Below, piece by piece: positions 4,947 through 24,412 of a stretch of 64,000 bases of DNA. The position numbers and the translations under genes were made by a program. The notes under the pieces were generated by a model, which was not told where the DNA came from, did not search any database, and was given only the letters and a program-made list of their open reading frames with translations. How positions within the stretch are numbered: the stretch's first letter is position 1; each line of letters begins with the position of its first letter. This DNA comes from Candidatus Bathyarchaeota archaeon (lineage in GTDB: Archaea > Thermoproteota > Bathyarchaeia > 40CM-2-53-6 > CAVXDP01): the NCBI GenBank assembly GCA_963760485.1, contig CAVXDP010000015.1, positions 137,389 through 201,388 on the forward strand, in the 5' to 3' direction.

Positions 4947-4949
4947 TAG

Positions 4950-5753
4950 GTGTACATCTTGTCCGGACACTTGGTGAAAGTCTACGATATTGATGGGAAG
5001 GAGACAAGAGAGATCAGCCTTCCAAAGATCTTCTCGGTCGACTTCAGGCCAGATGTCATAAGGAAAGTCGTGGTCGCCCTTCAGTCACATTCACTTCAGC
5101 CAAAGGGTCGAAATCTTATGGCTGGGAAAAGAACCACAGCAGAGTCACTCGGCGTCGGGCATGCCTTGGCAAGGGTGCCGCGTGTCAAAGGAGAGCGTTA
5201 CCCGCGGTCTGGCAATGCGGCTTTTGCTCCGAACACCGTTAAGGGTCGAGTAACCCATCCGCCGAAAGCTGAAAAGACTATCAGAAAAAGGATCAATCGA
5301 AAAGAACGTTTGATGGCTTTGTTCTCAGCCGTAGCTGCAACGGGGTCGAAAGATCTTGTTCAGAAGCGTGGGCATGTTGTGGATGAAGTTCAGACTTTTC
5401 CGTTGGTAGTTACAGATGATATTCAGAATCTCTCTCGAACATCAGATGTTCGAAGCCTGTTGACAAGAATTGGAGTAGTCGATGACTTGGAGAGGGCTCG
5501 AGACAGAGAGAAGAGCCTATCAGGCAAGAGTAGAATGCGCGGCAGAGCGAAACGGTTTGGAGTGGGACCTTTGCTGGTCGTTGGAGAGGACAAGGGATTG
5601 GGAAAGGCGGCGCGCAATCTCACGGGTGTTGATGTGGTTGAAGCGAAGAACTTAAACGTTCAACTCCTCGCGCCAGGTACAGACGCCGGAAGGCTCACAG
5701 TTTGGTCCGAATCAGCTCTAAAGATACTGGACCAATTCCATTCGAAGGTGTGA
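4950..5753 (+). CDS. rpl4: 50S ribosomal protein L4
   Basis: The 267-aa product has the L4 N-terminus VKVYDIDGKETREISLP; its position follows L3. Confidence 0.85.
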   Translation: MYILSGHLVKVYDIDGKETREISLPKIFSVDFRPDVIRKVVVALQSHSLQPKGRNLMAGKRTTAESLGVGHALARVPRVKGERYPRSGNAAFAPNTVKGRVTHPPKAEKTIRKRINRKERLMALFSAVAATGSKDLVQKRGHVVDEVQTFPLVVTDDIQNLSRTSDVRSLLTRIGVVDDLERARDREKSLSGKSRMRGRAKRFGVGPLLVVGEDKGLGKAARNLTGVDVVEAKNLNVQLLAPGTDAGRLTVWSESALKILDQFHSKV

Positions 5754-5757
5754 GAAA

Positions 5758-6027
5758 TTGGGAAAGATGACAAGTCGTGAAGTGATCGTTCATCCACTGA
5801 TCTCAGAGGATACCATTACGTTGATTGAAGCCGAAAACAAGATAACGTTTATCGTCAGCATCAAGGCTGATAAGCACGATATCAAGAGGGCTGTAAGAGA
5901 ACTCTACGAGGTAGACGTGGTCCAAGTTACTACTTGCATAACGCCGGACGGACGCAAGAAGGCCTATGTAAGACTCGCTCCTGAGAACAAGGCAGCAGAC
6001 TTGGCCGTAAAACTAGGTGTACTATAG
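5758..6027 (+). CDS. rpl23: 50S ribosomal protein L23
   Basis: The 89-aa product matches the L23 family and sits between L4 and L2. Confidence 0.85.
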   Translation: MGKMTSREVIVHPLISEDTITLIEAENKITFIVSIKADKHDIKRAVRELYEVDVVQVTTCITPDGRKKAYVRLAPENKAADLAVKLGVL

Positions 6028-6038
6028 AGGGGTTAGAT

Positions 6039-6782
6039 ATGGGAAAACGGATAATGGTTAGGAGAAGAGGCAGGGGAACATCTGTCTTCAGGGCTCATAC
6101 TTATGGGAGAATCAGCGAAGCTTCTTATCCACCACTTCCAATCGGCACGTCCGAGACTGTGAAAGGAGTAGTTGAGGATATCTTTCATGAACCGGCCAGA
6201 GGTACGCCATTGGCACTAATCAGATTTGAGAATCGTGAAGTATTCTACATTCCAGCACCAGAGGGGCTGAGCACTCAGAGAGACGTGGTCTTCGGTCCAA
6301 CTGCCAATGTGGAAATTGGAAACATTAAACCAATCAGCTCAATCCCAGAAGGCACCATGATATGCAATATTGAATTTCGCCCCGGCGACGGTGGAAAGAT
6401 TGCGAGAGCTTCGGGAACATACGCGACAGTGGTTGCACATACGCCTATAGGAACCGAGTTGAAATTGCCTTCTGGAAAATCCATTTACATCGGGGATCAA
6501 TGTCGCGCGATGATTGGAGTTGTAGCCGCAGCGGGTAGAACTGAGAAACCATTTCTCAAAGCTGGGTCGGTCGAGTTTCTCATGTCCTCGAGAGGTAGAA
6601 GATGGCCAGTTGTCAAGGGACAAGCTATGATTTCAGCCTCACACCCGTACGGAGGAGGTAGACACAAACACGCTGGAAAGCCAACTACAGTAGGCAGAGA
6701 TACTCCGCCGGGCAGAAAAGTTGGATTAATAGCTGCGAGACAGTCAGGAAGAGCAAAGAGAAGAATGCGAATCGCGAGATAA
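6039..6782 (+). CDS. rpl2: 50S ribosomal protein L2
   Basis: The 247-aa product has L2 motifs (GRNSRG-like GGGRHKHAGKP, SGRAKRR). Confidence 0.9.
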   Translation: MGKRIMVRRRGRGTSVFRAHTYGRISEASYPPLPIGTSETVKGVVEDIFHEPARGTPLALIRFENREVFYIPAPEGLSTQRDVVFGPTANVEIGNIKPISSIPEGTMICNIEFRPGDGGKIARASGTYATVVAHTPIGTELKLPSGKSIYIGDQCRAMIGVVAAAGRTEKPFLKAGSVEFLMSSRGRRWPVVKGQAMISASHPYGGGRHKHAGKPTTVGRDTPPGRKVGLIAARQSGRAKRRMRIAR

Positions 6783-6832
6783 AAATTTGAAAGACTTAAC
6801 TAGATCATTCGGAACTTGATGAGATGATATAG

Positions 6833-7238
6833 ATGCCTAAAGAATTCTTATTTCAGAGGATACAACCTCGAACAACTCCAACAGACATCGATGGACGACT
6901 TCATAAGACTACTTCCGGCAAGACAGCGTCGATCATTACTAAGAGGACTTACTGATGATCAGAAGAAACTGCTGGAACACATCAGACAAGTGAGACGCGC
7001 ATCCGAAAAAGACAAGAAATCCCCGATAAGGACACAATGCCGAGATATGATAATCCTTCCCGAAATGGTGGGGTTGACTATACTAGTCCACAACGGCAAA
7101 GAGTTCGCTCAGGTTGACATAACGCCAGCGATGATCGGGCACTATCTCGGTGAATTCTCCAGCCCAATCAAGAAGGTATCCCATGGAACTCCAGGAATCG
7201 GAGCATCTAGGAGCTCAATGTACGTTCCATTGAAGTAG
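6833..7238 (+). CDS. rps19: 30S ribosomal protein S19, with its N-terminus in a different frame from the body (single-base indel near 6848-6856)
   Basis: ATG at 6833 gives MPKEFLF, which matches the S19 N-terminus MPKEF.YRGY. The body [32 protein letters not shown]...GHYLGEFS is offset by +1 after tttc. The ORF track starts only at the internal Met at 6891. Confidence 0.8.
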
Positions 7239-7302
7239 TCCAGTACCACCTTTTCTATTTGATGACGAGCACCAGAGCGATCTTGTTGTTCATGGATTAA
7301 GC

Positions 7303-7554
7303 CTAATTTGACTTCTTCTTTGCGACACTGTAAGCAAGGTATCCACACACTGAAGCAATGACTAGGATAGTCAAAGATAGCATAGGTGCAAAGGTTGTCT
7401 TCACCGCAGCACCTGCATTCGCCTTGACACTTGTTTCCCTAAGAATCTCATATGTGGCAGGCGTGGTAACGTGTGGAATCACCTGAAAGTAGGTGAAGGT
7501 CAAAACAACGGCCAGAAGTAGCCCAAATGCTGCGTATCCAGCTTCCCTTTTCAA
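7303..7554 (-). CDS. Small membrane protein (two predicted TM helices), hypothetical
   Basis: The 83-aa ORF has hydrophobic segments. It is inserted on the opposite strand between rps19 and rpl22. Confidence 0.3.
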   Translation of the reverse strand: MKREAGYAAFGLLLAVVLTFTYFQVIPHVTTPATYEILRETSVKANAGAAVKTTFAPMLSLTILVIASVCGYLAYSVAKKKSN

Positions 7555-7626
7555 ATTCTCCCTCCCTCTTCTTTCAATTCAAATCGGCTCATTTAATTCT
7601 AGACTCTAGAACGACAAGTTCACTTT

Positions 7627-8088
7627 CTAGAACAGCTTCTCCTTCCAAATTCTTACAGTCTCAAATATCGACGTGGCCGATGCGATCAAGCCGAAGATCA
7701 CTGCCATCGTGTCTGGAACCAATGAGAGCCATAACGATCCCATCAGATACAACATGAGCGAGGCCGAGAAGAAAACGGCGTAGAAGAGATAGCGTGGTAG
7801 AACAAGCTTCCCGAACTTTAGAAAGAGGCGGAGTGTACCAACTTTGACCTGTTCAATGAGACGATACTGGCCGTACTCGTCCTTTTGGATAACGCCTAAT
7901 TCCCTTAGTTTTTCAAGATGATGAAGGGCTGTGCTTGGGCTTGCAAGCCCACAGGCTCTCTGGACCTCTCTGACCCCAACAGACTTCTGAGATTTGAAGA
8001 CTTGCCAGTATATTCGAAGTGTGGTTCCACGAAGTTCCGCCTCTACCCTTTGAAGCCCTTCTTTATTCTCCGACATTTTGCCACACAC
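7627..8088 (-). CDS. Membrane-anchored winged-helix transcriptional regulator (wHTH N-terminus plus two C-terminal TM helices)
   Basis: The N-terminus has a wHTH-like segment LRIYWQVFKSQKSVGVREVQRACGLASPSTALHHLEKLRELGVI; the C-terminal portion is hydrophobic. It lies opposite-strand inside the ribosomal-protein cluster. Confidence 0.45.
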   Translation of the reverse strand: MCGKMSENKEGLQRVEAELRGTTLRIYWQVFKSQKSVGVREVQRACGLASPSTALHHLEKLRELGVIQKDEYGQYRLIEQVKVGTLRLFLKFGKLVLPRYLFYAVFFSASLMLYLMGSLWLSLVPDTMAVIFGLIASATSIFETVRIWKEKLF

Positions 8089-8276
8089 TGCTCCATTAGC
8101 ATACTATACTCGTGGAATTCTAGGATAGTCGTGTTCTGACCATATCAAAAGCCTTTTTATTACCCAGTATTCTTCTAGAACGCAACTTCGAAAGTGGATA
8201 AGGTAAAACGTCATGCCAGAATGGGGTTACTCGGTCAAGGGGCTGGATCCCGATAAGAGTGTGAAATGCGCAGGTC

Positions 8277-8681
8277 GTGAACTCAAAATATCACCCAAGG
8301 CCGACCGTGGAAATCTGTCACACAATAAGAGGGATGAAAATCGCTGAGGCAAAGACCCTGCTCGAAGAAGTGATCAAGAAGAAACGGGCTATAGCCTACA
8401 GGCGATACAAGAAAGAGGTTTCTCACAAGAGCCTGCCAGAAAGATGGTACGCAGGGAAATACCCCGTAAAGGCCGCAGATCGAATTTTGATGTTACTGAA
8501 CGAACTTGAGGCCAATGCCGAGTACAAAGGCCTTGATTTGGAGAACCTACGAATTATTCACGCAGCATCTCATAGGGGACGAAAGATTAGGGGTTACACT
8601 CCTCGAGGTTTCGGTAGGGCTTCTCCATCCTATGAGACACTAACTCACGTTGAACTTGTAGGATACGAGGCTTCTTCGTAA
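8277..8681 (+). CDS. rpl22: 50S ribosomal protein L22
   Basis: The 134-aa product is L22-like (KAIAYRRYKK ... ILMLLNELEANAEYKGLDLENLRI...ASHRGRKIRG). Confidence 0.85.
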   Translation: MNSKYHPRPTVEICHTIRGMKIAEAKTLLEEVIKKKRAIAYRRYKKEVSHKSLPERWYAGKYPVKAADRILMLLNELEANAEYKGLDLENLRIIHAASHRGRKIRGYTPRGFGRASPSYETLTHVELVGYEASS

Positions 8682-10214
8682 TTAGTTCCCTTATTGACCG
8701 AGCAAGATGTCACTAGGTCCTCTGTATCCCTCTTTGGAAGGTCAAGGTCTCTATGGGCCCAGATACCTTCCTTAAGTAGCTTTGGCGCTCGCAACCTAGA
8801 TGAAATGGGCTTATTTCGAAGGATTTTACTTTGACTTCCTTTGTGAATTTGCTTCTTTTAACCTAATGAGCTAGTTTCAGGATGTTTGCTTGCTTGCCCG
8901 TTATGTAAGGATCCAGAAGACGTACCTTAGACCTTTCAATGCAGTGATATTACAGAAGGTCTTTAGAGGCTTGCATCCAGCAGTATGAAGAATCCATAAG
9001 AACGTCTTGTAGAACGCAAGAAGCAGCAGAAGAAGGAACGCATCGTGCTTTGCTAAGGCTTTGCTTATGTTCTATCGTTCCTTGAAGGGCCTTTATCTGC
9101 TTCTATTGTGAAAGAGCTAGGCATATCAAGGCATAGTAGAAGAGAGCATAAGCAAAGAAGTCAAACGCTTTCAGCATACTCCTAAGTCAGTACAGTCTGC
9201 CATCTACTAGTATCATATTTTCTGGCCTTTGTCTGCTTGTAACCATATGCTATGATCATTGTACTGGAATGATGTTCTTTGAATGCTCTTGGTAGCACAA
9301 GAGCATCTCATGTGAGTTCCTTTGATGGTCTCAGAGAGTAGAAAGAGCTAATTGTCGCAAAATGAGATTTTTAGACAAATTTACAAAGGAGCTGTAAGCC
9401 AGTTTTGGCTATTTACCTCATTTCTCGCTTATTTGTTCCTGTAGACCTTTCGCTTAGAGAGGTTCAGTCCAAAATGAGCCTCATGAGCCTATCTAGAGAC
9501 TTCAGTCGAAGGAGAGGTTCCAGAGGCGCGTCCTGCTTGTTCGGAGGAGGAAAAGAGCGTATTGGTGATGGTTTCTAATGTCCTTCGAGGGCTTTGCGGC
9601 AATCTGGTTATTCTTCAAGGGTCTTCTGGTGCTTCTTCGGCTTTCTTAGAGCTTGATGTCTTCTTTGCAGGCTCTCTGAATCCTTGCTAAGGAGCTTTGC
9701 TGTCTTCTTGAGCCTCTTCTTCTAAGGGATAGATATTCATGATAATAGTTCTTGGTGAAGCCTTCAGAGTGTACTAGAAGCCTAGTTCTCCTGCTCACCT
9801 ACGTTTTCACTGCCTGTCATCGCCTTCATCACTGCTTATCATCACTTTCACCAATGCTCATCACTGCCCTCGTCACTGTCTTCGGGCTTGTGTACACATT
9901 TGCCTGTATCCGTCACTCGAAGTTGACTATTAGACGCCTAGCACTTGTTGTGGTTGAACTTTGAACCTCTGTGGTGGTTAAGCTTGTAGTTATGCCAGTA
10001 CCGACAATCGTCCCAGCCTGTGAGAAACCTGATCGAGGCTCCGCAGTCACAGACTCCCCAGATGCTGCAGTTAGCAATCGACGGAGTCCACGTACAGGTT
10101 CCAGGCGTAGCGCTTGACCATCTCATCGTTTGTGTTTTTCTCCTTCAGTCGTTCCCATTGCCCGGTAGCATCAAAAACTTGAACTGGAATACGGTAATCT
10201 AATAGCTCTTCAAA

Positions 10215-11072
10215 ATGACTTTCGCTGCAGCTAATGGGAAGGAAAAAGTAATGAGTTTACCACCGTCGACATGGCAAGAGCATTGGTTCGAACATAATCA
10301 ACTAGTGAAACTCAAGTACTATGACGATTTTGTTGCAGTGTACTTCGATGACGACATGAGAGAAGCAGAGTCTTCTTGGCTCTATCAATACATGAGCACT
10401 CTTGCACAATATACAAAGTCACACTATGGCGATATTCGTTCGGATAGACTATACGCCATCTTCCACAAGGGGAAATACGGAGGAGGTCACCCCTCATACT
10501 ACTACGATGGAAGCCATGACTTCAGAAATGTGATTGATTGCGGGTCTGATAATTGGCAGGCTCCATCTACTTCTAGTCCATCTTGGCAATTTGATGGTCC
10601 TTCTCATGAAGTGGCTCACATAATCGAGTCTACGGTACACGGAAAACACAACTCTCCATGTTTTGGTCTATGGAATGATAGCAAGTGGGCAGAATTCTTC
10701 CAATATGGCTTCTACAAAGACATCGGTATGACGACATATGCTCAGACTAAATACAACGAATTCATGTCAAAATCTGATGATTATCCTCGGCCGGGCACTC
10801 AATGGTTCAGAAAGTGGTTTTCAATCCTCTATTCTACTTATGGAGGATCCAAGTGCATGAGAGAGTTCTATCATATGATAGATCAGTATTGGCCATATCA
10901 AAACAAGTCGATGAATTGGGGAGAGTTAATTCATTTCATGAGCGCAGCTGTTGGAACTGATCTAAAGTTTCCAGCTGAAGCTGCATTTGGCTGGTCTAGT
11001 GAATGGGAAGATCAATACCAACAAGCCATGCTCGTCTACAAATTTACTACTACGCCTGACGGCTCAACGTGA
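10215..11072 (+). CDS. HExxH-motif protein, a putative zinc metallopeptidase with no signal peptide; first cargo gene of the island
   Basis: The 285-aa ORF contains SHEVAHIIESTVHGKH (HExxH). After the stop at 11070, a second frame stays open to a TAA embedded in repeat A (11237-11239), so the true 3' end is uncertain. Confidence 0.45.
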   Translation: MTFAAANGKEKVMSLPPSTWQEHWFEHNQLVKLKYYDDFVAVYFDDDMREAESSWLYQYMSTLAQYTKSHYGDIRSDRLYAIFHKGKYGGGHPSYYYDGSHDFRNVIDCGSDNWQAPSTSSPSWQFDGPSHEVAHIIESTVHGKHNSPCFGLWNDSKWAEFFQYGFYKDIGMTTYAQTKYNEFMSKSDDYPRPGTQWFRKWFSILYSTYGGSKCMREFYHMIDQYWPYQNKSMNWGELIHFMSAAVGTDLKFPAEAAFGWSSEWEDQYQQAMLVYKFTTTPDGST

Positions 11073-11216
11073 CTGGGCCTTATCATCATGATGATGGGGT
11101 TCGGCTTACCGCTATTCCTGCTCTCGCTGAATGGTCTGATGCCTTAACGGGTAAGAACGCCGAAAAATTCTACAAATTCCAGAGTATACCAGTACTCATC
11201 CACTGTCTCCATATGG

Positions 11217-11259
11217 AGAGAACAGTTTAACCCCGACGATAACGTGGGACAAGATCCCA
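11217..11259 (+). repeat. Island repeat copy A: conserved box GAGAACAGTTTAACCCCGACGATAACG plus hairpin TGGGA-CAAGA-TCCCA
   Basis: Direct sequence reading: a 5-bp perfect stem immediately after the conserved box. Confidence 0.8.
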
Positions 11260-11337
11260 GTCGAGGCGCTATTTCGGCTTTTGACCTGTATTGCCATGTT
11301 CTTTTGGTCGCGGTACGAAGGTATTCCTTAGATCTGT

Positions 11338-11445
11338 CTAATATGAGTCTCGCATGTCTGATTTCCTCAGCCTGATGTTGCAGAAGGGGCATATTGGCTG
11401 GTAATCAGAGAACTGAGTCTTACATCGATCGCAATACCAACCCAT
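11338..11445 (-). CDS. Mini-ORF (35 aa) with CxxC...CxxC zinc-ribbon spacing (MGWYCDRCKTQFSDYQPICPFCNIRLRK...)
   Basis: Hand-translated; it lies 41 nt downstream of the RHH ORF on the same strand. It is below the ORF-track size cutoff. Weak. Confidence 0.2.
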   Translation of the reverse strand: MGWYCDRCKTQFSDYQPICPFCNIRLRKSDMRDSY

Positions 11446-11486
11446 TAGATGACCCTTCCACTGGATTGAAACAAGTGCGCATGCAT

Positions 11487-11630
11487 CTATTTTTCCTTGG
11501 CAACCCACGTTTTTACGGATTCTTCGACAGCTCTAGATAGGTCGCCCTTTTTCCCACCAAATCTCTCAATAGTCTTAAACCTTAACTTCTTTTCCAGCTC
11601 ATCAGAGAGTTCCACACTGATTCGACCCAT
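11487..11630 (-). CDS. Ribbon-helix-helix (CopG/Arc/MetJ-like) small protein, 47 aa
   Basis: Hand-translated: MGRISVELSDELEKKLRFKTIERFGGKKGDLSRAVEESVKTWVAKEK. The ISVxLxDEL N-terminal beta-strand and following helices are typical of RHH antitoxins/regulators. It is below the ORF-track size cutoff. Confidence 0.4.
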   Translation of the reverse strand: MGRISVELSDELEKKLRFKTIERFGGKKGDLSRAVEESVKTWVAKEK

Positions 11631-12310
11631 TCCAATCACCAACATCAATCTTTATGCAGGATTTGCAGACGTCAGGCGTTCTTCCAGTAAGCAAAATCGT
11701 GGATGCCCGCTGTTGCTTTTCTTGTTATCATTTTCATTCACCCAACGTTTGCTTACCCACCTATCCATATATGTGCTTACCAGCCTATAAGGATATTGGT
11801 TTAATGGTCATCGGGGTTAAACTACAGTTCCTCAACTCACGAGTGTGCAATATACGGCGCCTAAGAGATCTAATGCGATTCGCTAGGGCCTGTTGTTTTC
11901 TGCTCTCTTTCTTTCTCTCATCTTCTATCTATCAGGATCGTAAGGGTGCTTCGGGCTGGTTTCCAAAATAATAATCTGGATTAGAAGGAATAGGTATTGT
12001 ACAAGCGGGTTATAGAAATATCATAGAAGGTGGAAGACGTGAAACATCGAAAGCATGAGAAAGCTCAATCCTACGACAGAATGGGTTACCTCGTATTATT
12101 CAAGGATGGAACAATTCTACCACTTGTGGACAAACCCAACGCCAAAGAAATCGAGCAAATCTTCTGTTAGACTAGAGTCACCATTATTCTGCTAACCCGT
12201 TTGTATGTAAGTCCGGGCCGGCCGAGACAACAACAGATTGTCTGTGAATCCTCTTCTTCAATGTAACATGAGATCTGTAATGTGAGGGACGGCAAGATTA
12301 TATTGGGAAG

Positions 12311-12760
12311 GTGCAAGCGTGCTTTTCCAAGGTATGCATCTTGGCTAAGGAACCAATCTATAAAAGAACGCTTTTGGACCTGGCAGCCGCTTTCTTTCTG
12401 ATAGGCGGAGTCGTCGCCCTAGCTAGTACAATCGTTATGATTCCTATCGCTACAGTCTATCCATTCACACTGAGAGCAGTGACTTTCGTTACACTGGTCG
12501 TACTGGTTGTAGGCATTATTTGTGCCGTGGAAGCTCTGGAATGCTACAGCTTTGCGTCCAAGAGACTACTGCTAAAGGCTGGGATGAGGGGTATAATCGT
12601 TGGAGCAATCCTCCTCAGTCTAAGCGTAGGCCTGATAGGAATACAAGATGTCAGAACCCAGCTGGTGGCCGGAAGCGCGATTCTGATGATAATAGGCGGA
12701 GTGATATGCTATATCTACAGGGAGCCAACGATTGACTTCCACGCTAAAAAGGAGAAGTAG
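12311..12760 (+). CDS. Integral membrane protein (about 4 TM helices), hypothetical
   Basis: The 149-aa ORF is strongly hydrophobic; the start codon is uncertain (GTG at 12311). Confidence 0.35.
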   Translation: MQACFSKVCILAKEPIYKRTLLDLAAAFFLIGGVVALASTIVMIPIATVYPFTLRAVTFVTLVVLVVGIICAVEALECYSFASKRLLLKAGMRGIIVGAILLSLSVGLIGIQDVRTQLVAGSAILMIIGGVICYIYREPTIDFHAKKEK

Positions 12761-12791
12761 AAAAGCATTCTCTGAAACGCTAGGACAACCA

Positions 12792-13511
12792 ATGGCGATT
12801 ATATCTATGAAAAACAAACGCGGGATACTGTCTTTATGTATAATTATTTTGTTCATTTTGGGATCGCTAAACCTCAGTCTCATAGTTGCAGCCGTGTCCA
12901 GTGGCGAATGTTACACAACCAAACGAACTTACCAGTATGGTGAGAATGTGATTGTCAATATCGCCACGTCAACGGGGATCAACAATACCAGAGTGTTGAT
13001 CTATCTCCCAAACGAAGAGGTTAACACCTTTACTATCGGCAGACTTGGCACTGGCGCATGGCAGTTTTCAATAGGTCCCGCGGGGTCTCCAATTGGCCAA
13101 AGGATGGTAGTGTTGTTGGACGGTTCAACAACTCTTTCAACAACCTACTATACGGTTGTTCAATCCTCTTCAACAACTACCATAACCGTTGCTACGGCAA
13201 CAAGAACATTGACGGGAACCGTTACGCAAACCTACACAGTCACCCGATTCACAACAACTTTTCAAACAACAACCGAATATCAGACATCAACAGTATCCAG
13301 AACTAAGACCGAATCCTCTACGGTGACGATGCAGACCACGACGGTCACAACCCAGTATCAGACGCTATCCACGTCCAGTACCGTTACGCAGATGTACACG
13401 ATCATTTTGCCAATACTGGGTCCAATGACTCTTGTTTACACATTGTTAGCAGTGATAGTCCTTCTCATCTTTGCCATAGTATTTGTAGCTTCGAAAATGG
13501 CCAAAAAATAG
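12792..13511 (+). CDS. Secreted/surface protein with signal peptide, Thr-rich stalk and C-terminal TM anchor
   Basis: The product starts MAIISMKNKRGILSLCIIILFILGSLNLSLIVAA (signal-like). It has a long T/V/Q-rich low-complexity tract (TVTQTYTVTRFTTTFQTTTEYQTSTVS...) and a C-terminal hydrophobic helix with a KK tail. Confidence 0.5.
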   Translation: MAIISMKNKRGILSLCIIILFILGSLNLSLIVAAVSSGECYTTKRTYQYGENVIVNIATSTGINNTRVLIYLPNEEVNTFTIGRLGTGAWQFSIGPAGSPIGQRMVVLLDGSTTLSTTYYTVVQSSSTTTITVATATRTLTGTVTQTYTVTRFTTTFQTTTEYQTSTVSRTKTESSTVTMQTTTVTTQYQTLSTSSTVTQMYTIILPILGPMTLVYTLLAVIVLLIFAIVFVASKMAKK

Positions 13512-13900
13512 TTGCTCATAGAGATGGCATCTTCGGATTCGCTAAGGTGTTGGGTCGTGAGAAGAGAATAGTTCTACTTTGTTTTTCTCGGTTGGCAAGC
13601 AAACTGGCGAGTGCAAGATACTCTCTGTCAGTATCGCTTACCAGTCTTCTTCACTGGGTTGTTCGTCCTCTTCTTCCACGTCTTTTTCTTCGTCCATTCT
13701 GATTATCACCGAAACGAGCGACCATCCCTTCTAGCTAATAATACTTATGATTACTAAGCATGGGCTTTTTCCGGGTGAACAAACTTTCAACAAGAGTAGC
13801 ACGTTTTCTAGGACACCAATTCGATGAGAGAAAACAAATCGCTGAAAGAATGGCTGAGTTCTATGATAAGCGAAGTGCAGTGGTACACGGTGAGAATGTT

Positions 13901-13944
13901 GAAAAGCAGTTTAACCCCGACGTTATCGTTGGTTAAGATCCCAA
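13901..13944 (+). repeat. Island repeat copy B: GAAAAGCAGTTTAACCCCGACGTTATCG plus hairpin TTGG-TTAAGATC-CCAA
   Basis: Direct reading. The stem sequence differs from copy A but pairing is retained. Confidence 0.75.
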
Positions 13945-14045
13945 TCCTCTTGGGTAACGTTTTGCCAGGTTGGTTTCGGTTAGCATCAGACGATCTCTCA
14001 CTCAACAGAGCAAACTCAATTGTAGCCAGCATCGAATTGAGTTGG

Positions 14046-14066
14046 TTTATCCCCGACGATATATCC
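14046..14066 (+). repeat. Island repeat partial copy B': TTTATCCCCGACGATATATCC
   Basis: Direct reading. It shares the CCCCGACGATA core, lies about 100 bp after copy B, and is preceded by the 7-bp inverted repeat CTCAATT...AATTGAG. Confidence 0.5.
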
Positions 14067-14134
14067 GATTAAAGAGATCTAATCATTTGATATGATCCTG
14101 ACGCAGCTCTTAAGTTAGGGACAACGAAACCAAT

Positions 14135-14608
14135 GTGTGGCGAATATGTTTGGTCAAAGAGGGAGATAAGGCTCCGGACTTCACTTTGCAGGCAGATGAT
14201 GGACGTGAAGTGTCACTCAAAGATTATCAAGGTAAGAAAGTAGTTCTCTATTTCTATCCAAAAGATGACACTCCTGGTTGTACTCGTGAAGCTGCTGAGT
14301 TTAGGGACACAATAAAAGAGTTGGAGAACGAGAACGCTGTAATAGTCGGCGTGAGCAAAGACAGTGTTGAATCCCATAAGAAATTCAAGGAAAAGTATGG
14401 GCTACCTTTTACATTGCTTAGCGATCCTGAAGCCAAAGTCTTAAGACTCTATGAGGTTTGGAAAAAGAAAAGCCTCTATGGTCGCGAGATGATGGGTACA
14501 GAGCGAACCACCTTCCTGATAGATGAGAAGGGGATAGTCAAGAAAGTATATCGGAAGGTGAAGGTTGAAGGACACGCAAAAGCCTGTCTGATGGACTTGA
14601 AGTCTTGA
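14135..14608 (+). CDS. bcp: Peroxiredoxin, Bcp/PrxQ-type thiol peroxidase
   Basis: It has KAPDFTL, YFYPKDDTPGCTREA (peroxidatic Cys) and the AhpC/TSA fold. The true start is probably TTG at 14150 (MVKEGDKAPDF). Confidence 0.8.
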   Translation: MWRICLVKEGDKAPDFTLQADDGREVSLKDYQGKKVVLYFYPKDDTPGCTREAAEFRDTIKELENENAVIVGVSKDSVESHKKFKEKYGLPFTLLSDPEAKVLRLYEVWKKKSLYGREMMGTERTTFLIDEKGIVKKVYRKVKVEGHAKACLMDLKS

Positions 14609-14723
14609 TGCGTAGAGCGCCTAACTTGTCGTAGGTTTCCATCTTCTTCTTCGACTATATGCCCATTCAATCTGATCCGGTGCAGTCCAGAAGCATATAC
14701 CTGCGCAATCACAGCATGTATAC

Positions 14724-15044
14724 TCAGCGAAACCAATGTTGAAGTTCGATGACATTGCCCTCGGGGTCAGTAACGTAGACGATTCTAGCCTTACCTGCAC
14801 CATCGATCTCCGTGGTAACGATTTTTCCAACATCGCTGCCACCTGCTGCAATCACTGCATCATGTGCTTGGTCCACATCATCTACTGCAAACGCAATGTG
14901 GCCAAAACCGGGGCGATTGACAGCGGTTCCAGGCTTTTCGGTCTCAACATCGTACTGAAAAATCTCGATCGTTGGACCAGTGTTACCGTAACCCGGCGCA
15001 CGCAAGTGTGCGCCACGAATATGAGCAGATCTTATGCTTGTCAC
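14724..15044 (-). CDS. Glyoxalase/bleomycin-resistance (VOC) family protein
   Basis: The 106-aa product has HIAFAVDDVDQAHDAVIAAGG ... DPEGNVIELQ, typical of the VOC superfamily. Confidence 0.7.
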   Translation of the reverse strand: MTSIRSAHIRGAHLRAPGYGNTGPTIEIFQYDVETEKPGTAVNRPGFGHIAFAVDDVDQAHDAVIAAGGSDVGKIVTTEIDGAGKARIVYVTDPEGNVIELQHWFR

Positions 15045-15284
15045 GTCATCCAGCCACTGACCTGAGAGATCACGCTCAGGCGGAACTAGTGCGCAGCCAA
15101 AGACCTCAATGTAAAACTTGGCAAGACGTTTCCAATCTTGCGCAACGATGTTCGTGTGAACAAATCTAGCATTTGAAACAGTTCCCGTTTTCTACTCCTC
15201 CTCAACCACTACCATATGGACTGAACTGGGATCTAGACGATGTTCATGTATTACTCCTGTACACGATTGAAAACGTTTTGTCCC

Positions 15285-15321
15285 GAAAAACAGTTTAACC
15301 CAGACGATAACGTGAGATAGG
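15285..15321 (+). repeat. Island repeat copy C: GAAAAACAGTTTAACCCAGACGATAACGTGAGATAGG, with a degenerate hairpin
   Basis: Direct reading. The box has C to A at one position and the downstream hairpin is lost. Confidence 0.65.
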
Positions 15322-15431
15322 TGCAGGAACCAGTTGGTATCAGTTGGCGGGTAATGCTTACGCGCCATTCGGAGCCGTCTTAACAGAAAGCACAGGTGAC
15401 TTGATATTCGGAATCAACTTCACCCAGTTGA

Positions 15432-18400
15432 ACCCCCAAGCAACGGATCAGTACTTTATACTATGGTCTAACGATTTATCTGCCACCGGAATTCAAGCCG
15501 CCAGTGGACTGGGCAACGGCTGACACTTCGAATATTATTACGACCATTACAAACGATTACAGCGTCATCTACGTTTGGAAGGCCGATGTGAAAGATCCCT
15601 TCGGACCGGGCTGGTGGGTTATCTACATACGTGCCCCCGGCGGTGGAGAATCCTCACACTCCATTATGATTTTCTCGCATGATAACGGATACAAGGAATG
15701 GTACTATGTTCGTGTGAACGGTATGACTGCGCCTAAGATTGCTGGTCGATACTTTTTCAAAATGTTCCTTGGCGAAAGCTATCCAATCATGAATGCGGTT
15801 AATCGTGACGGTTCCACCGTGAACCCGGACAGATTGCCGGTGCTGAACACGATGCCTGCGGAGAACTGGCCTGTAATGCTTGTGAAAGGTGAAGTTGATC
15901 CAGGCATTATTGAAGGGACAATTCGCTACGGTGCATGGAACCAAGCATTATACAATAAACCAATTCAACTTCCAGGCCGAGTTCGTGCGGTTGGAGTTGC
16001 AGATGACCCCTATACTGGTGCTAGTACAGGTCGTGCAGTTGAAGCTCGTGGATACTTTAACGCCTCAGCGAAAGGTCACTATGAGGTTGAAGGTGTAGCT
16101 CCAGGGGTCTATGACATTTATGCGAGTGCAGCTGGATACCCGGAAATGAAAGTTGCAAGCGGTGTAAAGATTATTGCAGGTAAAAGTTTCCACATGGATT
16201 TTCTATTGCAACCAGGTCCAATCATTACAGGTGTAATCTATAGCAAACACAGCTTCGGAGAAGTTAGCATGGTCGAGTACACGTCCAGTAACAGTAGAAA
16301 TCTATGACAGCAACGAATGGCCAGTAGCGAAACCAGGTTATGGCTGGGATTCTGCTGGAAATATCATTTGAACAGGGAACAGGCGAAGTATGGACTGATA
16401 TGGGTTACAAAGTTGTTAATGCACACCTGAAGAGTTTCTCACCAATCAATTTGACCCAAGCACCATTCACAAGTTATGTAGACTGGAAACGTAATCTATG
16501 ATCCAGCTAAAGGCTACGCTGATCTTCTGCACCCTGGCACTGTTTCGTTTTCTAGTCTAAGGGAATGTTCCTGGTGGACAACCTAAGCTAGTTGCATTTC
16601 CATGGGAGGGTCCCAAGAATCCATCGAGTTGCTTTACCATCAAGTTTCCTGGGGTCATGAATGAGTACTCTGATATTCCAGATGATCTAACGTCTCAGAA
16701 AGATAATTATGGCTTGTTCAATGGGGTTGGTCCAGCGCAGTACTGGTGGGTTGACAAACTAGGCCAATGGACGAATGGTGGCGGATCAAATAGTTTCCGT
16801 TATCAATTTGGAATCAAAGGATACTACGGTGCACCAATGGAATTCGACGGTCACATGCCACAAGTCTGTGCAAGCTGGGTTAACGGGTTGACCGCAGGCA
16901 CATACTACCTCCGTTCATGGATCAATGGCTACGTCCAAACTGATGTTAGCGGCACATACGTAGATTATCCATTCAGTGTCGCGGCACAGGAATGGGCTGG
17001 TGACATTAACACTCCAATGGACCTTGAAACGTCAAGCTGGATCAACAAGACTGTACACTTCCACGATTTGCCAGGCACCTTGCAGACAAGTCCGATTCGC
17101 GGACCAGATCCCTACAGGTACATGATCGCTGAAGCATACGACGCAGACAATGTGCTTGTTGCAATGAACTTTACACAGGTTCCAGTGAAAGACCGATACG
17201 GCAATCTAGTGAGTGACTGGAACATTACATTGAACGGATTCGGAATGGCAGGGCCGGTCTACATTATTCCGTCTGATTTATGGGTTGACTGAAGTGATTC
17301 TCGATGGTATTCCACCGGGCATGAAGTTCTTCCTGTACAGGTATAGGCATATCCGTGATTATGGCATGATGCCAGGCACTTACACGATCCGCGTCTACAT
17401 GAGAGGCTATGTGCAACAAGAATTTGAGATGGCTTCAATTAGTTTGAGCCAAAGTCCAGCGATAATCAGCAACCACATGTATCGTGGAGCAGGAATCAAC
17501 ATGACTATCTACTCAATTGACTGGGAGCATCCACGCGTCGACAGGCCATGGAACTTTCCATGGCGATGACATAAGAGTTCACGTGTTCAATGAGGCAGGA
17601 GACGACATGGGCCTACGTCAGATGGTGGGATGGGACGACAGGCCAACTATAGATACTTGGGTTGTGCCCAACACAGACTCAGCGGTAGCACAGTAGTTCC
17701 AAGCAAGGATTGGCCTGCACCAGCCCGGCTAGTAAGCTCAAGTTCAACGGTTCAACAGTTCTAGAAGTTTATGGACCGGACACGGGTGGTGGCTGGTTCC
17801 CATTCCGCTCTTAACTTTACACTTCCAATCTTAACGGCCCTGGCAGTACAGATGCGGGGACTGGTATATGGCTTGAATTCGGTTATTATAGAAGCGGGTT
17901 CTTGACAAGTCCAAACCTGTACAGAACTGCTGATCTGAAGACAAGGGTTGCCTTAGAAACTGGTACATACGACGCTTAAGGCGTGGACGCTTGGTTACGT
18001 CCAGAAGAAGGATATCACAGTCTACGCGCAGAAAGGATCACAGGCAGATACCAAGCTCAACCTAGTCATAGGCGTGAACATGACGGTTAACATCAAATTC
18101 AAGAAGGAAGGCATCTTCACACACGTACCATTTGACCAATCCTTTAGGATAAGAGTCTTCGACGATAACAATGGGCTAGTTGCCACATGGTACACCAGCT
18201 ATCTTCGATGATAGTACCTTCTACCATGGCGTGCTTCCACGATGCGGTCAACAGAGCCTACGGTGGATTCATGGAAAGGGGACCAGTGACATAATTCTGA
18301 GCGACGAATGAAGACTTTGGTCAGAGACAGCACCACCGACCTACAGGTTGTACTGGCTGGAAACTACTACTACTTCGAAATCAACAGCTATGGCTATGTT

Positions 18401-19062
18401 CCATTTGAAGAAAGAAACTATGCTCTATCCAGGGCTAATGGAATCGATGGGTGGCCGAATTATCAGGGTACTTGGCGCATCGAGGTTGATGCAGTCAACC
18501 TGGTACTATAGCGACAAGTGGTTCCCAGCTCCTCCAGGCCTGCTACTTGGTGAAAGCTACCACATAATCAACGGCGTCGAAGGACCGTACAACGGCATGT
18601 GGAAGTATAACCATCTTGGCCCATGGGAACAGAAGATGGTTGTTACAGTGCCAAATGCTCACTTGGGAGCTGAAGCAAGCGTCGTCTTCGAACTAGACCA
18701 ACGAGGCCTAGTCTCAGGACAAATCGCAGGATTCAGTTGGAGTGACGAACTCCGTCCAACAAGTTGGGCAACAATCACAGGCAGCTGGTGCAGGCGGGAC
18801 CTTCACAGTCTACTCGGCAGACGGATACTATGACATGTACCTTCCAGCAGGCAGCTACGAATTCAGCGTCATGGAAAGCCCAGGACACGCAGCAAAGAGC
18901 GCAAGCATAACCGTCAGTACAGGCCAACAAGTGACAGGATATAGCTTCTACTTAGAAAGAACCAACGTTCCAATTCCAGAATTCGGACCAGTCATAGCAC
19001 TAGTAGCAGCACTCGGAGCATCACTGTACGTGCTACGGAGAAACCGCAAAAAGGGCAACTAG
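15432..19062 (+). pseudogene. Giant surface protein (about 1200 aa if joined) with a PEF-CTERM-like C-terminal sorting tail. It is fragmented across at least six ORFs in three frames: 15504..16307, 16657..17292, 17285..17569, 18308..18511, 18348..18833 and 18742..19062
   Basis: Coding-like translation hops between frames, with stretches of 350 and 740 nt lacking any long ORF. The C-terminus is ...NVPIPEFGPVIALVAALGASLYVLRRNRKKGN (PEF, then TM helix, then basic tail). The disruption density is several-fold higher than in neighbouring genes. Genuine decay or mis-assembly of a hypervariable gene cannot be distinguished from sequence alone. Confidence 0.4.
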
Positions 19063-19191
19063 GCCCTTGCCTCTCTTTTTTCTTTCTTCAGCTCAAATTG
19101 GTTTCTGAAAAACATACTTTCTGAAGCGAAACTGGTTGTCTCTACGTTAAGATCGAGGAAAGTCTGACTTACCGGCCCGTATTGAAGCGCT

Positions 19192-19234
19192 GAGAACAGT
19201 TTAACCCCGACGATATCATGGGATAACATCCCAT
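19192..19234 (+). repeat. Island repeat copy D: GAGAACAGTTTAACCCCGACGATATC plus hairpin ATGGGA-TAAC-ATCCCAT
   Basis: Direct reading. It has a 6-bp perfect stem and lies about 130 bp after the PEF-CTERM gene end. Confidence 0.8.
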
Positions 19235-19929
19235 CGGCCCCCTCATCGCTAGGAATGATTCTAACAGGTAAGAGTGGCGATTTCAATCCTCTGAAACTAC
19301 CACACGATTACGTACCTCACCTGAATTTCCACTGCAGACGCGACAATTTCCTCTGCAGAAAAAGGCTCGTGATGGAGTATTAGCCTAGCTCCAAAGCCGC
19401 TGGGAGCGCCTTCAGACATAGCGTTCAGAGCAATTCCACCAGAAACAGAAAACGAAGCATGAACTGAAACTGGAAGTTCGATGCTTATCGTGCAATCCCC
19501 AATTCATTACTTTGCCTCTTTGATAATGTACTCTACAGCAGACAAGAAGCTATCTGCAACAGCTGTTGGTTCTACTTCCTTTTCTTGGAGTTCTGCAAGG
19601 TATTTGTTTCCGTGTCCAGTAAGAGGCTGTTTTGCACCCGGCATTCTTGCCCATAACAATGTCAGAAAGGTGATCGCCGATAGCTCATGACCCTACTGAT
19701 TCAATTCCGTACAGTGTAACTATTTTGTCGTTGCGTTTAGTGCTGGGGGGCGTTTGAGGCCGATAGATTTCTGACTGCTACTCGATACAGAGTTTTACGT
19801 AATGATACATAATTTTAGTTTAGAGCTAGGCGCCGAAGCCTTCTCGGCTTATATACAACAGAAACCTATACAATTTTTTAAACTAAACCTAACCATTAGT
19901 TGTCTTTGCTTTACTTCTGAGGGATCCAG

Positions 19930-24103: not shown

Positions 24104-24412
24104 ATGAACAGAATATCGATACTGGTGGACAAGAAGATGGCTGCATATCTCGAGTTGCCGAAGAACATAGGCATCTCGGTGGCGTCGGGGAGAAATGACG
24201 CAGTACGCAGATTCAAAAGGCTGCGTTGTGATAATGACATTTCAATTATCATGGTTTCTAGAAGAGTCTTGGATTGGATAGAACAGCCCCTGTCGATGTG
24301 CACTGAGCAAGGCGGATGTCCGTTTGTTGTATCTCTTATCAACAAGGGTGGCCCAAGGACCCAGGCTAGACATGTTTCAAGGTTACTGGGAAAAATTGTT
24401 GAATCAACCTAG
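24104..24412 (+). CDS. V-type ATPase subunit F-like paralog
   Basis: ISILVDKKMAAYLEL...IGISVAS...DISIIMVSRRVLDWIEQ aligns with the bona fide AtpF at 63410 (VAIIADKYLATGFRLAGV...YDIIIMTEKLAMALKRE). It stands alone next to the P-type ATPase. Confidence 0.4.
   Translation: MNRISILVDKKMAAYLELPKNIGISVASGRNDAVRRFKRLRCDNDISIIMVSRRVLDWIEQPLSMCTEQGGCPFVVSLINKGGPRTQARHVSRLLGKIVEST

What the first reader, a model, noticed from the sequence alone, without database searches (positions are those of the whole stretch)
11217..19234. Five same-orientation copies of a conserved box plus covarying hairpin punctuate an ~8-kb run of cargo genes
Four full copies and one partial copy share the core box (G)A(R)AA(C/G)CAGTTTAACCCCGACG(A/T)TA(A/T)C: A 11217-11259, B 13901-13944, B' (partial) 14046-14066, C 15285-15321, D 19192-19234. 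In A, B and D the box is followed at once by a short hairpin whose stem sequence changes while pairing is kept (A TGGGA/TCCCA, B TTGG/CCAA, D ATGGGA/TCCCAT). That is compensatory covariation, which argues for a selected structural DNA or RNA element rather than chance similarity. All copies face the same way and each sits just 3' of plus-strand cargo: the HExxH protein; the RHH/membrane/Thr-rich surface protein block; the peroxiredoxin plus glyoxalase; and the giant PEF-CTERM protein. The spacing is irregular (2.7, 1.4 and 3.9 kb), so this is not a CRISPR array. The box contains GTTTAAC, which fits the RYYYAAC inverse-core consensus of integron attC sites. Three explanations are possible: (i) cassette-boundary recombination sites (an archaeal integron-like or other site-specific system; no integrase lies in this window); (ii) a shared 3'-UTR/terminator or RNA-processing element of horizontally acquired genes; (iii) a small MITE-like mobile repeat. 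A weak, possibly coincidental resemblance exists between the box (CAGTTTAACCCCGACG) and the intron of the tRNA-Ala at 47222-47242 (CAGCTTAACCCAACAAG).
Basis: partly seen in the sequence, partly recalled or inferred. Interest (0 to 1): 0.8.

Follow-up and report, generated by a model that had tools for sequence, protein, structure and literature searches.

The report
tRNA-derived recombination sites bounding gene cassettes
The repeated 40-base box is most likely a recombination-site scar, made of a conserved 21-base arm plus a decayed copy of the end of a proline tRNA gene, that marks where foreign gene cassettes were stitched one after another into an archaeal chromosome; this kind of element is known, but here it occurs in an unusual form with no integrase gene.

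Summary
The repeat is real. There are four full plus-strand copies (11217-11259, 13901-13943, 15285-15321, 19191-19245) and a partial copy (14043-14062). All lie in a gene-variable island (about 8.7-19.9 kb) between the ribosomal gene L22 and nrdD in a probable Bathyarchaeia genome.

Each box has two parts: a conserved 21-nt arm (CAGTTTAACCCCGACGWTAWC) and a 5-7-5 hairpin. The hairpin is a decayed tRNA T-arm, and in copy D an acceptor-like tail follows it.

Three results point to recombination:
- In a relative (L127), the same island position starts at an intact tRNA-Pro. An inverted arm follows the tRNA directly. 1.6 kb further on, a box carries a near-copy of the tRNA 3' end.
- A contig 97% identical to the window (L132) loses homology exactly at the end of box A.
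- Two other contigs (L121 and L126) diverge inside the T-loop-like core.

The boxes are therefore att-type recombination junctions, left by serial integration of cassettes that carry no integrase gene. They are not integron attC sites: there is no R' partner, they are too short, and there is no IntI. The "covariation" is weak and is explained by T-stem ancestry. No recombinase gene was found, so the enzyme and mechanism are inferred. I rate this a new variant of a known kind, of moderate interest.

The parts
8690..19871 (.). Variable island that holds all the boxes. It lies between the end of ribosomal protein gene L22 and the start of conserved nrdD synteny.
   Evidence: L127, L128 and L129 align with the window only from 19872 or 19929 rightwards. 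The L127 island proteins have no match in the window. The stretch 8690-10214 has no ORF of 120 aa or more and no Pfam signal in six frames.
11217..11259 (+). Box A. The arm is 11223-11243 and the T-arm-like core is 11244-11259 (GTGGG ACAAGAT CCCA).
   Evidence: 60.5 bits. L132 is 96.7% identical to window 10155-11259 and diverges immediately after position 11259. The core matches 12 of 17 positions of the tRNA-Pro T-arm.
11808..11830 (-). Inverted arm E (P'-type arm; plus strand reads TCATCGGGGTTAAAC). It is the putative left end of a 2.1-kb element whose right end is box B.
   Evidence: (I4, I13). It shares the CGATG variant with the arm that abuts tRNA-Pro in L127.
13901..13943 (+). Box B. 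It overlaps the 3' end of the 58-aa ORF 13760-13936. The core is GTTGG TTAAGAT CCCAA.
   Evidence: 67.7 bits. The same locus occurs at about 99% identity in L119, L120 and L125. The core matches 13 of 17 positions of the tRNA-Pro T-arm.
14043..14062 (+). B', a partial second arm in direct orientation (TGGTTTATCCCCGACGATAT).
   Evidence: D2; 12 bits, E=0.21. L123 shows a similar tandem partial arm 34 nt upstream of its box.
15285..15321 (+). Box C. The arm is intact. The core loses similarity inside the loop-like segment.
   Evidence: 51.5 bits. The core matches only 6 of 17 positions of the T-arm.
19191..19245 (+). Box D. It has an arm, a perfect 5-7-5 hairpin (ATGGG ATAACAT CCCAT) and an acceptor-like tail (CGGCCCC).
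   Evidence: 64.6 bits. It matches 19 of 27 positions of the tRNA-Pro 3' end. The background tail for that score is 2e-5.
10215..11072 (+). Cargo: an HExxH protein of bacterial type, similar to basic secretory peptidases.
   Evidence: No Pfam hit. Homologues are mostly bacterial at about 45-60% identity, with a 95% identical copy in L132.
11338..11648 (-). Zinc-ribbon ORF and RHH_6 gene, lying between the outward-facing ends of box A and arm E.
12311..13936 (+). Cargo between arm E and box B: a membrane protein, a Thr-rich surface protein, and a 58-aa fragment that contains RSAVVHG.
   Evidence: The only database homologue of the 58-aa ORF is the same locus.
14135..15044 (.). Cargo: peroxiredoxin (14135-14608, plus strand) and a glyoxalase-fold protein (14724-15044, minus strand).
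15344..19062 (+). Cargo: a large surface protein ending in a PEF-CTERM-like tail. It is fragmented over several reading frames.
   Evidence: CarboxypepD_reg. The C-terminus reads ..PIPEFGPVIALVAALGASLYVLRRNRKKGN.

Best explanation
Each box is an att-type junction left by site-specific recombination. It has two parts. The first is a conserved 21-nt arm, CAGTTTAACCCCGACGWTAWC. The second is a core copied from the 3' part of a tRNA-Pro gene: T-stem, 7-nt T-loop, T-stem and, in the best-kept copies, the acceptor 3' strand.

Proposed mechanism (inferred). Circular DNA carrying arm-core-arm' recombines with the T-arm of tRNA-Pro, or with a resident box. This is the way class II tRNA-targeting tyrosine integrases act, using the T-stem as dyad-symmetric half-sites and the T-loop as the overlap region. 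Repeated rounds stack cassettes next to each other, and each leaves an arm+core scar on its distal side. None of the cassettes encodes a recombinase, so the enzyme must act in trans or has been lost. In that respect the array resembles accreted cis-mobilizable elements.

Shown here: the composite anatomy of the box, the association with tRNA-Pro in a relative, breakpoints at the box between near-identical sequences, and different cargo at the same locus in two relatives.

Inferred: the type of recombinase, the crossover position, the order of events, and whether the system is still active.
For: 1. In L127 (NrdD 77% identical; syntenic with the window from 19872 onwards) the island begins at an intact tRNA-Pro(GGG) at 547-637.
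   - The inverted arm TTATCATCGGGGTTAAAC follows the tRNA directly.
   - 1.6 kb downstream, a plus-strand box continues as GATCCCAACGACCCCACC. This matches 16 of 18 positions of the tRNA 3' end, in the same orientation, within a 35-nt direct repeat at 77% identity.
   - This is the attL/attR layout of an element integrated into a tRNA gene.
2. In a fixed register, the cores match the tRNA-Pro T-arm or 3' end: A 12/17, B 13/17, L132 13/17, D 19/27, L127a 22/27. Background tails are 2e-5 to 1e-4. Most cores are closer to tRNA-Pro than to the window's own tRNA-Ala.
3. Breakpoints fall at the box.
   - L132 is 96.7% identical to the window up to ..GACAAGATCCCA and unrelated afterwards.
   - L121 and L126 share 60 nt of left flank plus the box, and diverge after GGTTAAG inside the loop-like 7-mer.
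   - Box C also loses similarity there.
4. The islands in the window and in L127 share no proteins, yet both carry the boxes. The more distant L128 to L131 have none.
5. The cargo looks horizontally acquired. The HExxH protein has mainly bacterial relatives.
6. Established knowledge fits this reading. Class II integrases target the tRNA T-loop (PMC1762012). Archaeal att sites are usually 40-50 bp at tRNA 3' ends, and tandem integration is known (PMC8371274). Decayed elements that keep att sites but have lost int accrete in tandem (PMC5704250).
Against: - No integrase or other recombinase was found. This holds for every window ORF of 120 aa or more, the six-frame translation of 8690-10214, the L127 island and the metagenome contigs.
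- The window holds no tRNA-Pro gene and no tRNA remnant that Rfam detects in 8-20.5 kb.
- Simple tandem accretion predicts an inverted arm directly after each internal box. That is seen only in L126, and partly at arm E.
- T-loop-like sequences such as ACAAGAT and TTAAGAT lack the canonical TTC. The arm has no known origin.
- The evidence rests on about 12 non-independent copies from short metagenome contigs. A breakpoint at a 40-nt repeat in a short-read contig (L132, L121, L126) could be an assembly chimera.
Confidence: 0.62

Rival explanations
1. This is a genuine integron cassette array (a CALIN). The boxes are attC sites that fold as single-stranded hairpins and are recombined by an IntI integrase encoded elsewhere.
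For: GTTTAAC fits RYYYAAC. The spacings (2.7, 1.4 and 3.9 kb) meet the under-4-kb CALIN criterion. Integrons and CALINs exist in archaeal MAGs (PMC9668308). Most copies share one orientation.
Against: 9 of 11 copies have no GTTRRRY partner within 170 nt. The conserved unit is about 40 nt. The folds are not better than shuffles. The cassettes hold several genes on both strands. There is no IntI. The 3' half is derived from a tRNA and abuts a tRNA gene in L127, which attC sites do not do.
Confidence: 0.05
2. The arms are the terminal inverted repeats of a small non-autonomous transposon with strong target preference for T-arm-like sequence, moved by a transposase encoded elsewhere.
For: Two segments are bounded by inverted arms: L127 640-2216, and window 11808-13943. 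L126 contains a 41-nt joint with perfectly inverted 10-nt ends. No integrase is encoded inside the segments.
Against: Most boxes have no inverted partner. The flanking direct repeats are 22-35 nt of tRNA sequence, not a short target-site duplication. The internal sequences are unrelated to one another. Conservation extends beyond the arm into the core. The window has no copies outside the island.
Confidence: 0.12
3. The box is a cis-acting RNA element shared by acquired genes: a 3'-UTR stabiliser, a terminator, or a processing site. One variant is that the arm pairs with the complementary trailer of the tRNA-Pro transcript.
For: Several copies lie 40-150 nt after a co-oriented stop codon: A, D, L122, L123 and L127b. 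A short hairpin is partly kept. The arm and the tRNA-Pro trailer could form a duplex of about 18 bp.
Against: Box C, L121 and L127a follow the 5' end of opposite-strand genes. Arm E precedes its co-oriented genes, while the L127 inverted arm follows its own. There is no Rfam match even at E up to 10. The fold z-scores are insignificant. There is no U-tract. This rival does not explain homology breakpoints at the box.
Confidence: 0.07
4. The boxes are remnants of the 3' coding end of one duplicated gene. In frame, the box reads (E)KQFNPDD[IN]VG followed by a stop codon.
For: In one frame most copies read QFNPD.. and stop at the same place. Box B ends a 58-aa ORF.
Against: The upstream sequences do not align. 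The only protein in 5.8 billion that shares words with the 58-aa ORF is the same locus. The stop codon is the TAA of the T-loop-like GGTTAAG.
Confidence: 0.03

Closest known systems
tRNA-targeted integrative elements of archaea and bacteria (tyrosine integrases; class II, T-loop sublocation)
   Same: Direct repeats of a tRNA 3' part bound the inserted DNA, and one repeat lies inside an intact tRNA gene (L127). The core is the dyad-symmetric T-arm. Homology breakpoints fall in or next to the loop. The site length is about 40-50 nt. The cargo is foreign genes.
   Different: No integrase gene lies in or near any element. The elements are tiny (1.4-3.9 kb). A 21-nt non-tRNA arm is the best-conserved part. 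In the window the array is no longer next to the tRNA.
Cis-mobilizable elements (CIMEs) and tandem accretion at att sites (ICESt1/ICESt3-type islands)
   Same: These too are segments without an integrase that keep att sites, stacked in tandem at one chromosomal target, with different cargo in related strains.
   Different: CIMEs are described in Firmicutes next to a cognate ICE. Here no cognate integrase-bearing element is known, the host is an archaeon, and most internal junctions lack the second (P') arm.
Integron cassette arrays / CALINs (attC sites)
   Same: This is also an array of mostly co-oriented short recombination sites that separate promoterless-looking accessory genes. There is no integrase on the contig. 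An RYYYAAC-like heptamer is present.
   Different: There is no R' or L' partner and no attC fold, and the site is too short. The site is derived from a tRNA. The cassettes hold several genes on both strands.
tRNA gene fragments scattered by a mobile element in Caldiarchaeum subterraneum (PMC3293823)
   Same: In both cases a TACK-group archaeon carries tRNA gene fragments near a 1.8-kb insertion at a tRNA locus, with population heterogeneity.
   Different: That insertion encodes a recombinase and leaves 5' tRNA fragments. Here the fragments are 3' T-arm remnants fused to a conserved arm, and no recombinase is present.

Membership tests
Integron attC / CALIN | 5' inverse core R'' of the form RYYYAAC | tested here: met
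   GTTTAAC is present in 9 of 11 copies. The exceptions are GTTTAGC in L127b and GTCTAAC in L132.
Integron attC / CALIN | 3' core R' of the form GTTRRRY, complementary to R'', 50-140 nt downstream | tested here: not met
   Absent within 170 nt in 9 of 11 copies. L126 has GTTAAAC at offset 33, which is too close. Copy C has GTTGAAC at offset 137, which belongs to a direct partial arm.
Integron attC / CALIN | Imperfect palindrome of 55-141 nt that folds as a single strand with R and L boxes and extrahelical bases | tested here: not met
   The conserved unit is about 42 nt. DNA folds are weak, with z-scores from +1.1 to -2.3, and show no common long hairpin.
Integron attC / CALIN | IntI-type tyrosine recombinase on the contig (complete integron) | tested here: not met
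   No Phage_integrase-type or other recombinase domain in any window ORF of 120 aa or more. A CALIN does not need one.
Integron attC / CALIN | At least two sites less than 4 kb apart, separating short co-oriented ORFs | tested here: inconclusive
   The spacing criterion is met at 2684, 1384 and 3906 nt. However, the cassettes hold 1-3 genes on both strands.
tRNA-targeted integrative element (att sites) | Direct repeats of a tRNA gene segment bound the insert, one repeat lying inside an intact tRNA gene | tested here: met
   Met in relative L127: tRNA-Pro 547-637 and the repeat 613-647 / 2217-2251. In the window only the remnant copies exist. No tRNA-Pro is present.
tRNA-targeted integrative element (att sites) | Related genomes differ by presence or absence, or by replacement, of DNA exactly at the site | tested here: met
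   Window versus L132 at position 11259. L121 versus L126. Caveat: these are short metagenome contigs.
tRNA-targeted integrative element (att sites) | Integrase gene carried by the element next to an att site | tested here: not met
   None in the window island, the L127 island or the small contigs.
tRNA-targeted integrative element (att sites) | Recombination at the site catalysed by a site-specific recombinase | not testable with these tools
   This needs the complete genome, read-level junction analysis or biochemistry.
Cis-mobilizable element / accretion array | Segment flanked by attL and attR that lacks integration and transfer genes | tested here: met
   L127 640-2251 has an inverted arm, four small genes and a box. 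Window 11808-13943 runs from arm E to box B.
Cis-mobilizable element / accretion array | Cognate integrase-bearing element with the same att specificity in the same host | not testable with these tools
   The source contig could not be retrieved. Viral-contig scans were negative.
MITE / TIR transposon | Short, homogeneous multi-copy element with terminal inverted repeats and a short target-site duplication | tested here: not met
   Inverted arms exist for two segments only. The interiors are unrelated. The flanking repeats are 22-35 nt of tRNA sequence.
Structured cis-RNA or terminator | Fixed orientation relative to the neighbouring gene, and a conserved stable structure | tested here: not met
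   The orientation varies. There is no Rfam match. Covariation is weak.

The most novel reading that the evidence does not exclude
This is a tRNA-anchored gene-capture platform in Bathyarchaeia that works like an integron. Small cassettes that encode no recombinase each carry one arm+T-arm site. A dedicated recombinase encoded elsewhere inserts, excises and shuffles them in trans next to tRNA-Pro. On this reading the conserved 21-nt arm is the recombinase's recognition element, and the system evolved independently of IntI/attC.
Probability: 0.2. Interest if true: 0.75.

Novelty: new variant of a known kind. Interest (0 to 1): 0.45.

Why it matters
Bathyarchaeia are abundant sediment archaea with no cultured genetic system, and very little is known about their mobile elements. 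If these boxes are active sites, they define a compact recombination module: a 21-nt arm plus a T-arm core. That module moves accessory genes, including surface proteins, stress enzymes and a bacterial-type peptidase, into a fixed chromosomal hotspot. It would explain strain-level gene-content variation, and it would point to a recombinase that could be developed as a tool. It would also be a second example, beside integrons, of cassette stacking without a recombinase in each cassette. If the boxes are only decayed att scars, the finding is an ordinary genomic island.

Tried and rejected
1. **Coding-remnant idea.** In frame the box reads KQFNPDD.VG followed by a stop codon. I rejected this because the flanks do not align and no other protein shares the peptide.
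2. **Genome-contig scan with the 16-mer.** The only scan of that collection was therefore wasted.
3. **Retrieving the source contig or strain variants by exact protein look-up.** This failed for the peroxiredoxin, the HExxH protein, L2 and the 100% identical NrdD.
4. **Viral-contig scans** for the arm, for arm-gap-arm', and for the P' arm. The first two found nothing, and the third gave only chance hits.
5. **Search for a recombinase.** I ran Pfam on all window ORFs of 120 aa or more, on six frames of 8690-10214, and on the L127 and small-contig cargo. Nothing was found.
6. **Rfam** at gathering threshold and at E up to 10 over 8-20.5 kb. There was no relevant hit.
7. **Alternative hairpin** TTAACC/GGTTAA. 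Its columns are invariant, so it is uninformative. My first structure string was also misregistered.
8. **The 60-nt segment upstream of the box shared by L121 and L126.** It is absent from the window, and its fold is unremarkable in L121.
9. **tRNA genes near the boxes in L121-L123, L126, L128 and L129.** None were found.
10. **Literature search for the arm sequence.** No paper contains it.

Full report
**The observation**

The 17-mer ACAGTTTAACCCCGACG occurs four times on the plus strand with at most one mismatch (11222, 13906, 15290, 19196). It occurs once on the minus strand with three mismatches (11809-11825). Chance expects 0.14 matches, and no shuffle out of 100 reached five. The four plus copies align without gaps over about 42 nt, with start-to-start spacings of 2684, 1384 and 3906 nt. 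The sequence on either side does not align. The partial copy B' at 14043-14062 is real. A covariance model built from 11 copies and scored over the whole window without filters finds nothing further outside 11.2-19.3 kb.

**The setting**

- The window is archaeal and probably from Bathyarchaeia. It holds a tRNA-Ala with two introns. Some of the more distant NrdD homologues (about 46-49% identity) carry that name, while the closest ones are unnamed.
- The boxes lie in an 11-kb stretch between ribosomal protein gene L22 and nrdD.
- To the right of 19872 the window is syntenic with relatives L127 to L131 (nrdD, MFS, queT, P-type ATPase). To the left it is not.
- The cargo is miscellaneous: a bacterial-type HExxH peptidase whose nearest relatives are mostly bacterial, small regulators, membrane and Thr-rich surface proteins, a peroxiredoxin, a glyoxalase-fold protein and a large PEF-CTERM surface protein.
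- No ORF of 120 aa or more anywhere in the window has a recombinase domain. Neither does the ORF-free stretch 8690-10214 in any frame.

**What the box is made of**

The decisive locus is L127, a contig from a relative whose NrdD is 77% identical.

- Its island upstream of nrdD shares no protein with the window's island. It nevertheless carries the box at 2196 and 4523 on the plus strand, a decayed third copy near 5551-5601, and an inverted arm at 640-659.
- That inverted arm directly abuts the 3' end of an intact, intron-containing tRNA-Pro(GGG) at 547-637.
- The plus box at 2196 runs on into GATCCCAACGACCCCACC. This matches 16 of 18 positions of the tRNA's T-stem and acceptor 3' strand, in the same orientation, within a 35-nt direct repeat at 77% identity.
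- The layout is therefore: tRNA-Pro, then arm', then four small genes, then arm, then a copy of the tRNA 3' end. This is the attL/attR signature of DNA integrated into a tRNA gene, with the 21-nt arms as inverted repeats around a tRNA-derived core.

Read in that register, the window's 'hairpins' are T-arm remnants with 4-5 bp stems and 7-nt loops:

| Copy | Core |
|---|---|
| A | GTGGG ACAAGAT CCCA |
| B | GTTGG TTAAGAT CCCAA |
| D | ATGGG ATAACAT CCCAT, followed by the acceptor-like CGGCCCC |

Identities to the tRNA-Pro 3' part, with no freedom of register, are A 12/17, B 13/17, L132 13/17, D 19/27 and L127a 22/27. Only 2e-5 to 1e-4 of window positions score as well, and none reach 22/27.

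**The covariation argument**

Over 11 copies the five stem pairs are paired in 63.6% of cells. Three pairs show changes on both sides. The covariation score is 0.295 against 0.187 +/- 0.047 for shuffles, and 16 of 500 shuffles reach it. Sliding the partners by one column still gives 60% paired. Single-strand folds are not better than shuffles. Pairing is thus only partly kept. Descent from a T-stem, plus a possible need for dyad symmetry at a recombinase core site, explains this sufficiently. It is not strong evidence for a new structured element.

**Evidence that the box is a recombination junction**

1. L132 comes from another sample and encodes the HExxH protein at 95% identity. It is 96.7% identical to window 10155-11259. 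Homology ends exactly after ..GACAAGATCCCA, the last base of box A, and unrelated sequence follows. In L132 the stem is the perfect GTGGG/CCCAC of tRNA-Pro.
2. L121 and L126 share 60 nt of left flank plus the box, and diverge after GGTTAAG, inside the loop-like 7-mer. Box C loses similarity at the same place.
3. The box also sits in other contexts, behind a metallophosphoesterase gene (L122) and another gene (L123).
4. Two relatives have entirely different cargo, punctuated by the same box, at the same chromosomal position.

Crossover in the T-loop with the T-stem as symmetric half-sites is the known behaviour of class II tRNA-targeting integrases (PMC1762012). Archaeal att sites are typically 40-50 bp at tRNA 3' ends, and tandem integration is documented (PMC8371274).

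**Most likely mechanism**

An element or cassette that carries arm-core-arm' recombines with the tRNA-Pro T-arm or with a resident box. Successive events stack cassettes, and each leaves an arm+core scar. The window then reads as follows:

- A left element ends at box A.
- A 550-nt spacer holds the RHH and zinc-ribbon genes.
- A 2.1-kb element is bounded by arm E and box B.
- Further segments end at boxes C and D.

No segment encodes a recombinase. The closest described situation is therefore accretion of cis-mobilizable elements, which keep their att sites but have lost int (PMC5704250).

Steps shown: the anatomy, the tRNA association in a relative, the breakpoints and the variable cargo.

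Steps inferred: the recombinase class, the crossover point, the order of events and current activity.

**Weak points**

- No recombinase gene was found anywhere.
- The window has no tRNA-Pro.
- The inverted arm that simple accretion predicts at every internal junction is mostly missing.
- The origin and role of the arm, which is the most conserved part, are unknown.
- The breakpoint evidence comes from short metagenome contigs, which could be chimeric at a 40-nt repeat.

**Rivals**

- Integron attC: the site fits RYYYAAC and the CALIN spacing rule. It fails on the R' partner, on length, on fold, on cassette structure and on IntI.
- RNA element: disfavoured by inconsistent orientation relative to genes, by the absence of an Rfam match, and because it does not explain the homology breakpoints.
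- TIR transposon: explains the two arm-bounded segments. It does not explain the 22-35-nt tRNA direct repeats, the unpaired boxes or the unrelated interiors.
- Gene 3'-end remnant: rejected.

**Verdict**

It is a tRNA-Pro-derived att-type site, not an attC site, and the hairpin is a T-arm relic. This is a new variant of a known kind: tRNA-linked integrative or accreted elements, here in Bathyarchaeia, as very small cassettes without an integrase that share a conserved arm. Interest is moderate. It would rise if the full genome reveals a dedicated trans-acting recombinase and active cassette exchange.

Noticed in passing
window 8213-8681; 24409-27194; 32479-33931; 15344-19062: Conserved genes are split by frameshifts. 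L22 switches from the frame starting at 8213 to the frame starting at 8277. A P-type ATPase is split into 250-aa and 678-aa ORFs, although relatives have a single ORF of about 900 aa. TldD is split into 343-aa and 145-aa ORFs. The PEF-CTERM gene is also fragmented. This pattern suggests assembly indel errors rather than real pseudogenes.
   Followed up: partly
window 3939-10214: The ribosomal protein operon (L3, L4, L23, L2, S19, L22) is interrupted by two minus-strand genes between S19 and L22: a membrane protein at 7303-7554 and an HTH protein at 7627-8088. The operon stops after L22. S3 and the rest are absent, and about 1.5 kb follows with no ORF of 120 aa or more and no Pfam signal.
   Followed up: partly
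window 47164-47277: tRNA-Ala(TGC) has two insertions, 25 nt in the D-arm region and 23 nt at the anticodon loop. Rfam finds it and ARAGORN misses it. Its anticodon-loop intron contains CAGCTTAACCCAACAAG, which resembles the box arm, especially the L127 variant CAGTTTAACCCCAACG. The resemblance could be chance or a tRNA-intron origin of the arm. This was not resolved.
   Followed up: partly
window 13760-13936: A 58-aa ORF ends in ..AEFYDKRSAVVHGENVEKQFNPDVIVG. The RSAVVHG stretch looks like an HEPN-type Rx4H motif, and the ORF seems to be cut off by box B. It has no Pfam hit and no homologue other than the same locus in JGI metagenomes.
   Followed up: partly
window 10215-11072: The HExxH cargo protein belongs to a family found mostly in bacteria (Chitinophaga, Paenibacillus and others; one source names it 'basic secretory peptidase') at about 45-60% identity. 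This suggests cross-domain gene transfer into the archaeal island.
   Followed up: partly
window 9696-10154, compared with L132: The close variant L132 lacks about 460 nt that the window has. L132 13-179 aligns to window 9531-9695, and L132 179-1285 aligns to window 10155-11259. The left part of the island is therefore also polymorphic.
   Followed up: no
window 11206-11219: A perfect 14-nt palindrome, TCTCCATATGGAGA, lies immediately upstream of box A. A related CCATATGG lies about 70 nt upstream of box C.
   Followed up: no
L126 116-156: A 41-nt unit, CAGTTTAACCCCGACGTTATCAATGGTTAAGGGTTAAACTG, has perfectly inverted 10-nt ends (DNA fold -9.2 kcal/mol, z = -2.3). It may be an arm-core-arm' joint with a short core.
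   Followed up: partly
window 15425-15440: A weak third direct arm-like repeat, CAGTTGAACCCCCAAG (3 mismatches), lies 134 nt downstream of box C. This mirrors B' after box B and the partial arm upstream of the box in L123.
   Followed up: no
L127 2404-4478: The relative's island also carries Thr-rich surface proteins. One has an MG2 domain. The other, 157 aa long, ends in ..VVPEFSTTFAAIIAATSLAFLILRRRKS, a PEF-CTERM-like tail. Secreted surface proteins thus recur as cargo in both islands.
   Followed up: no
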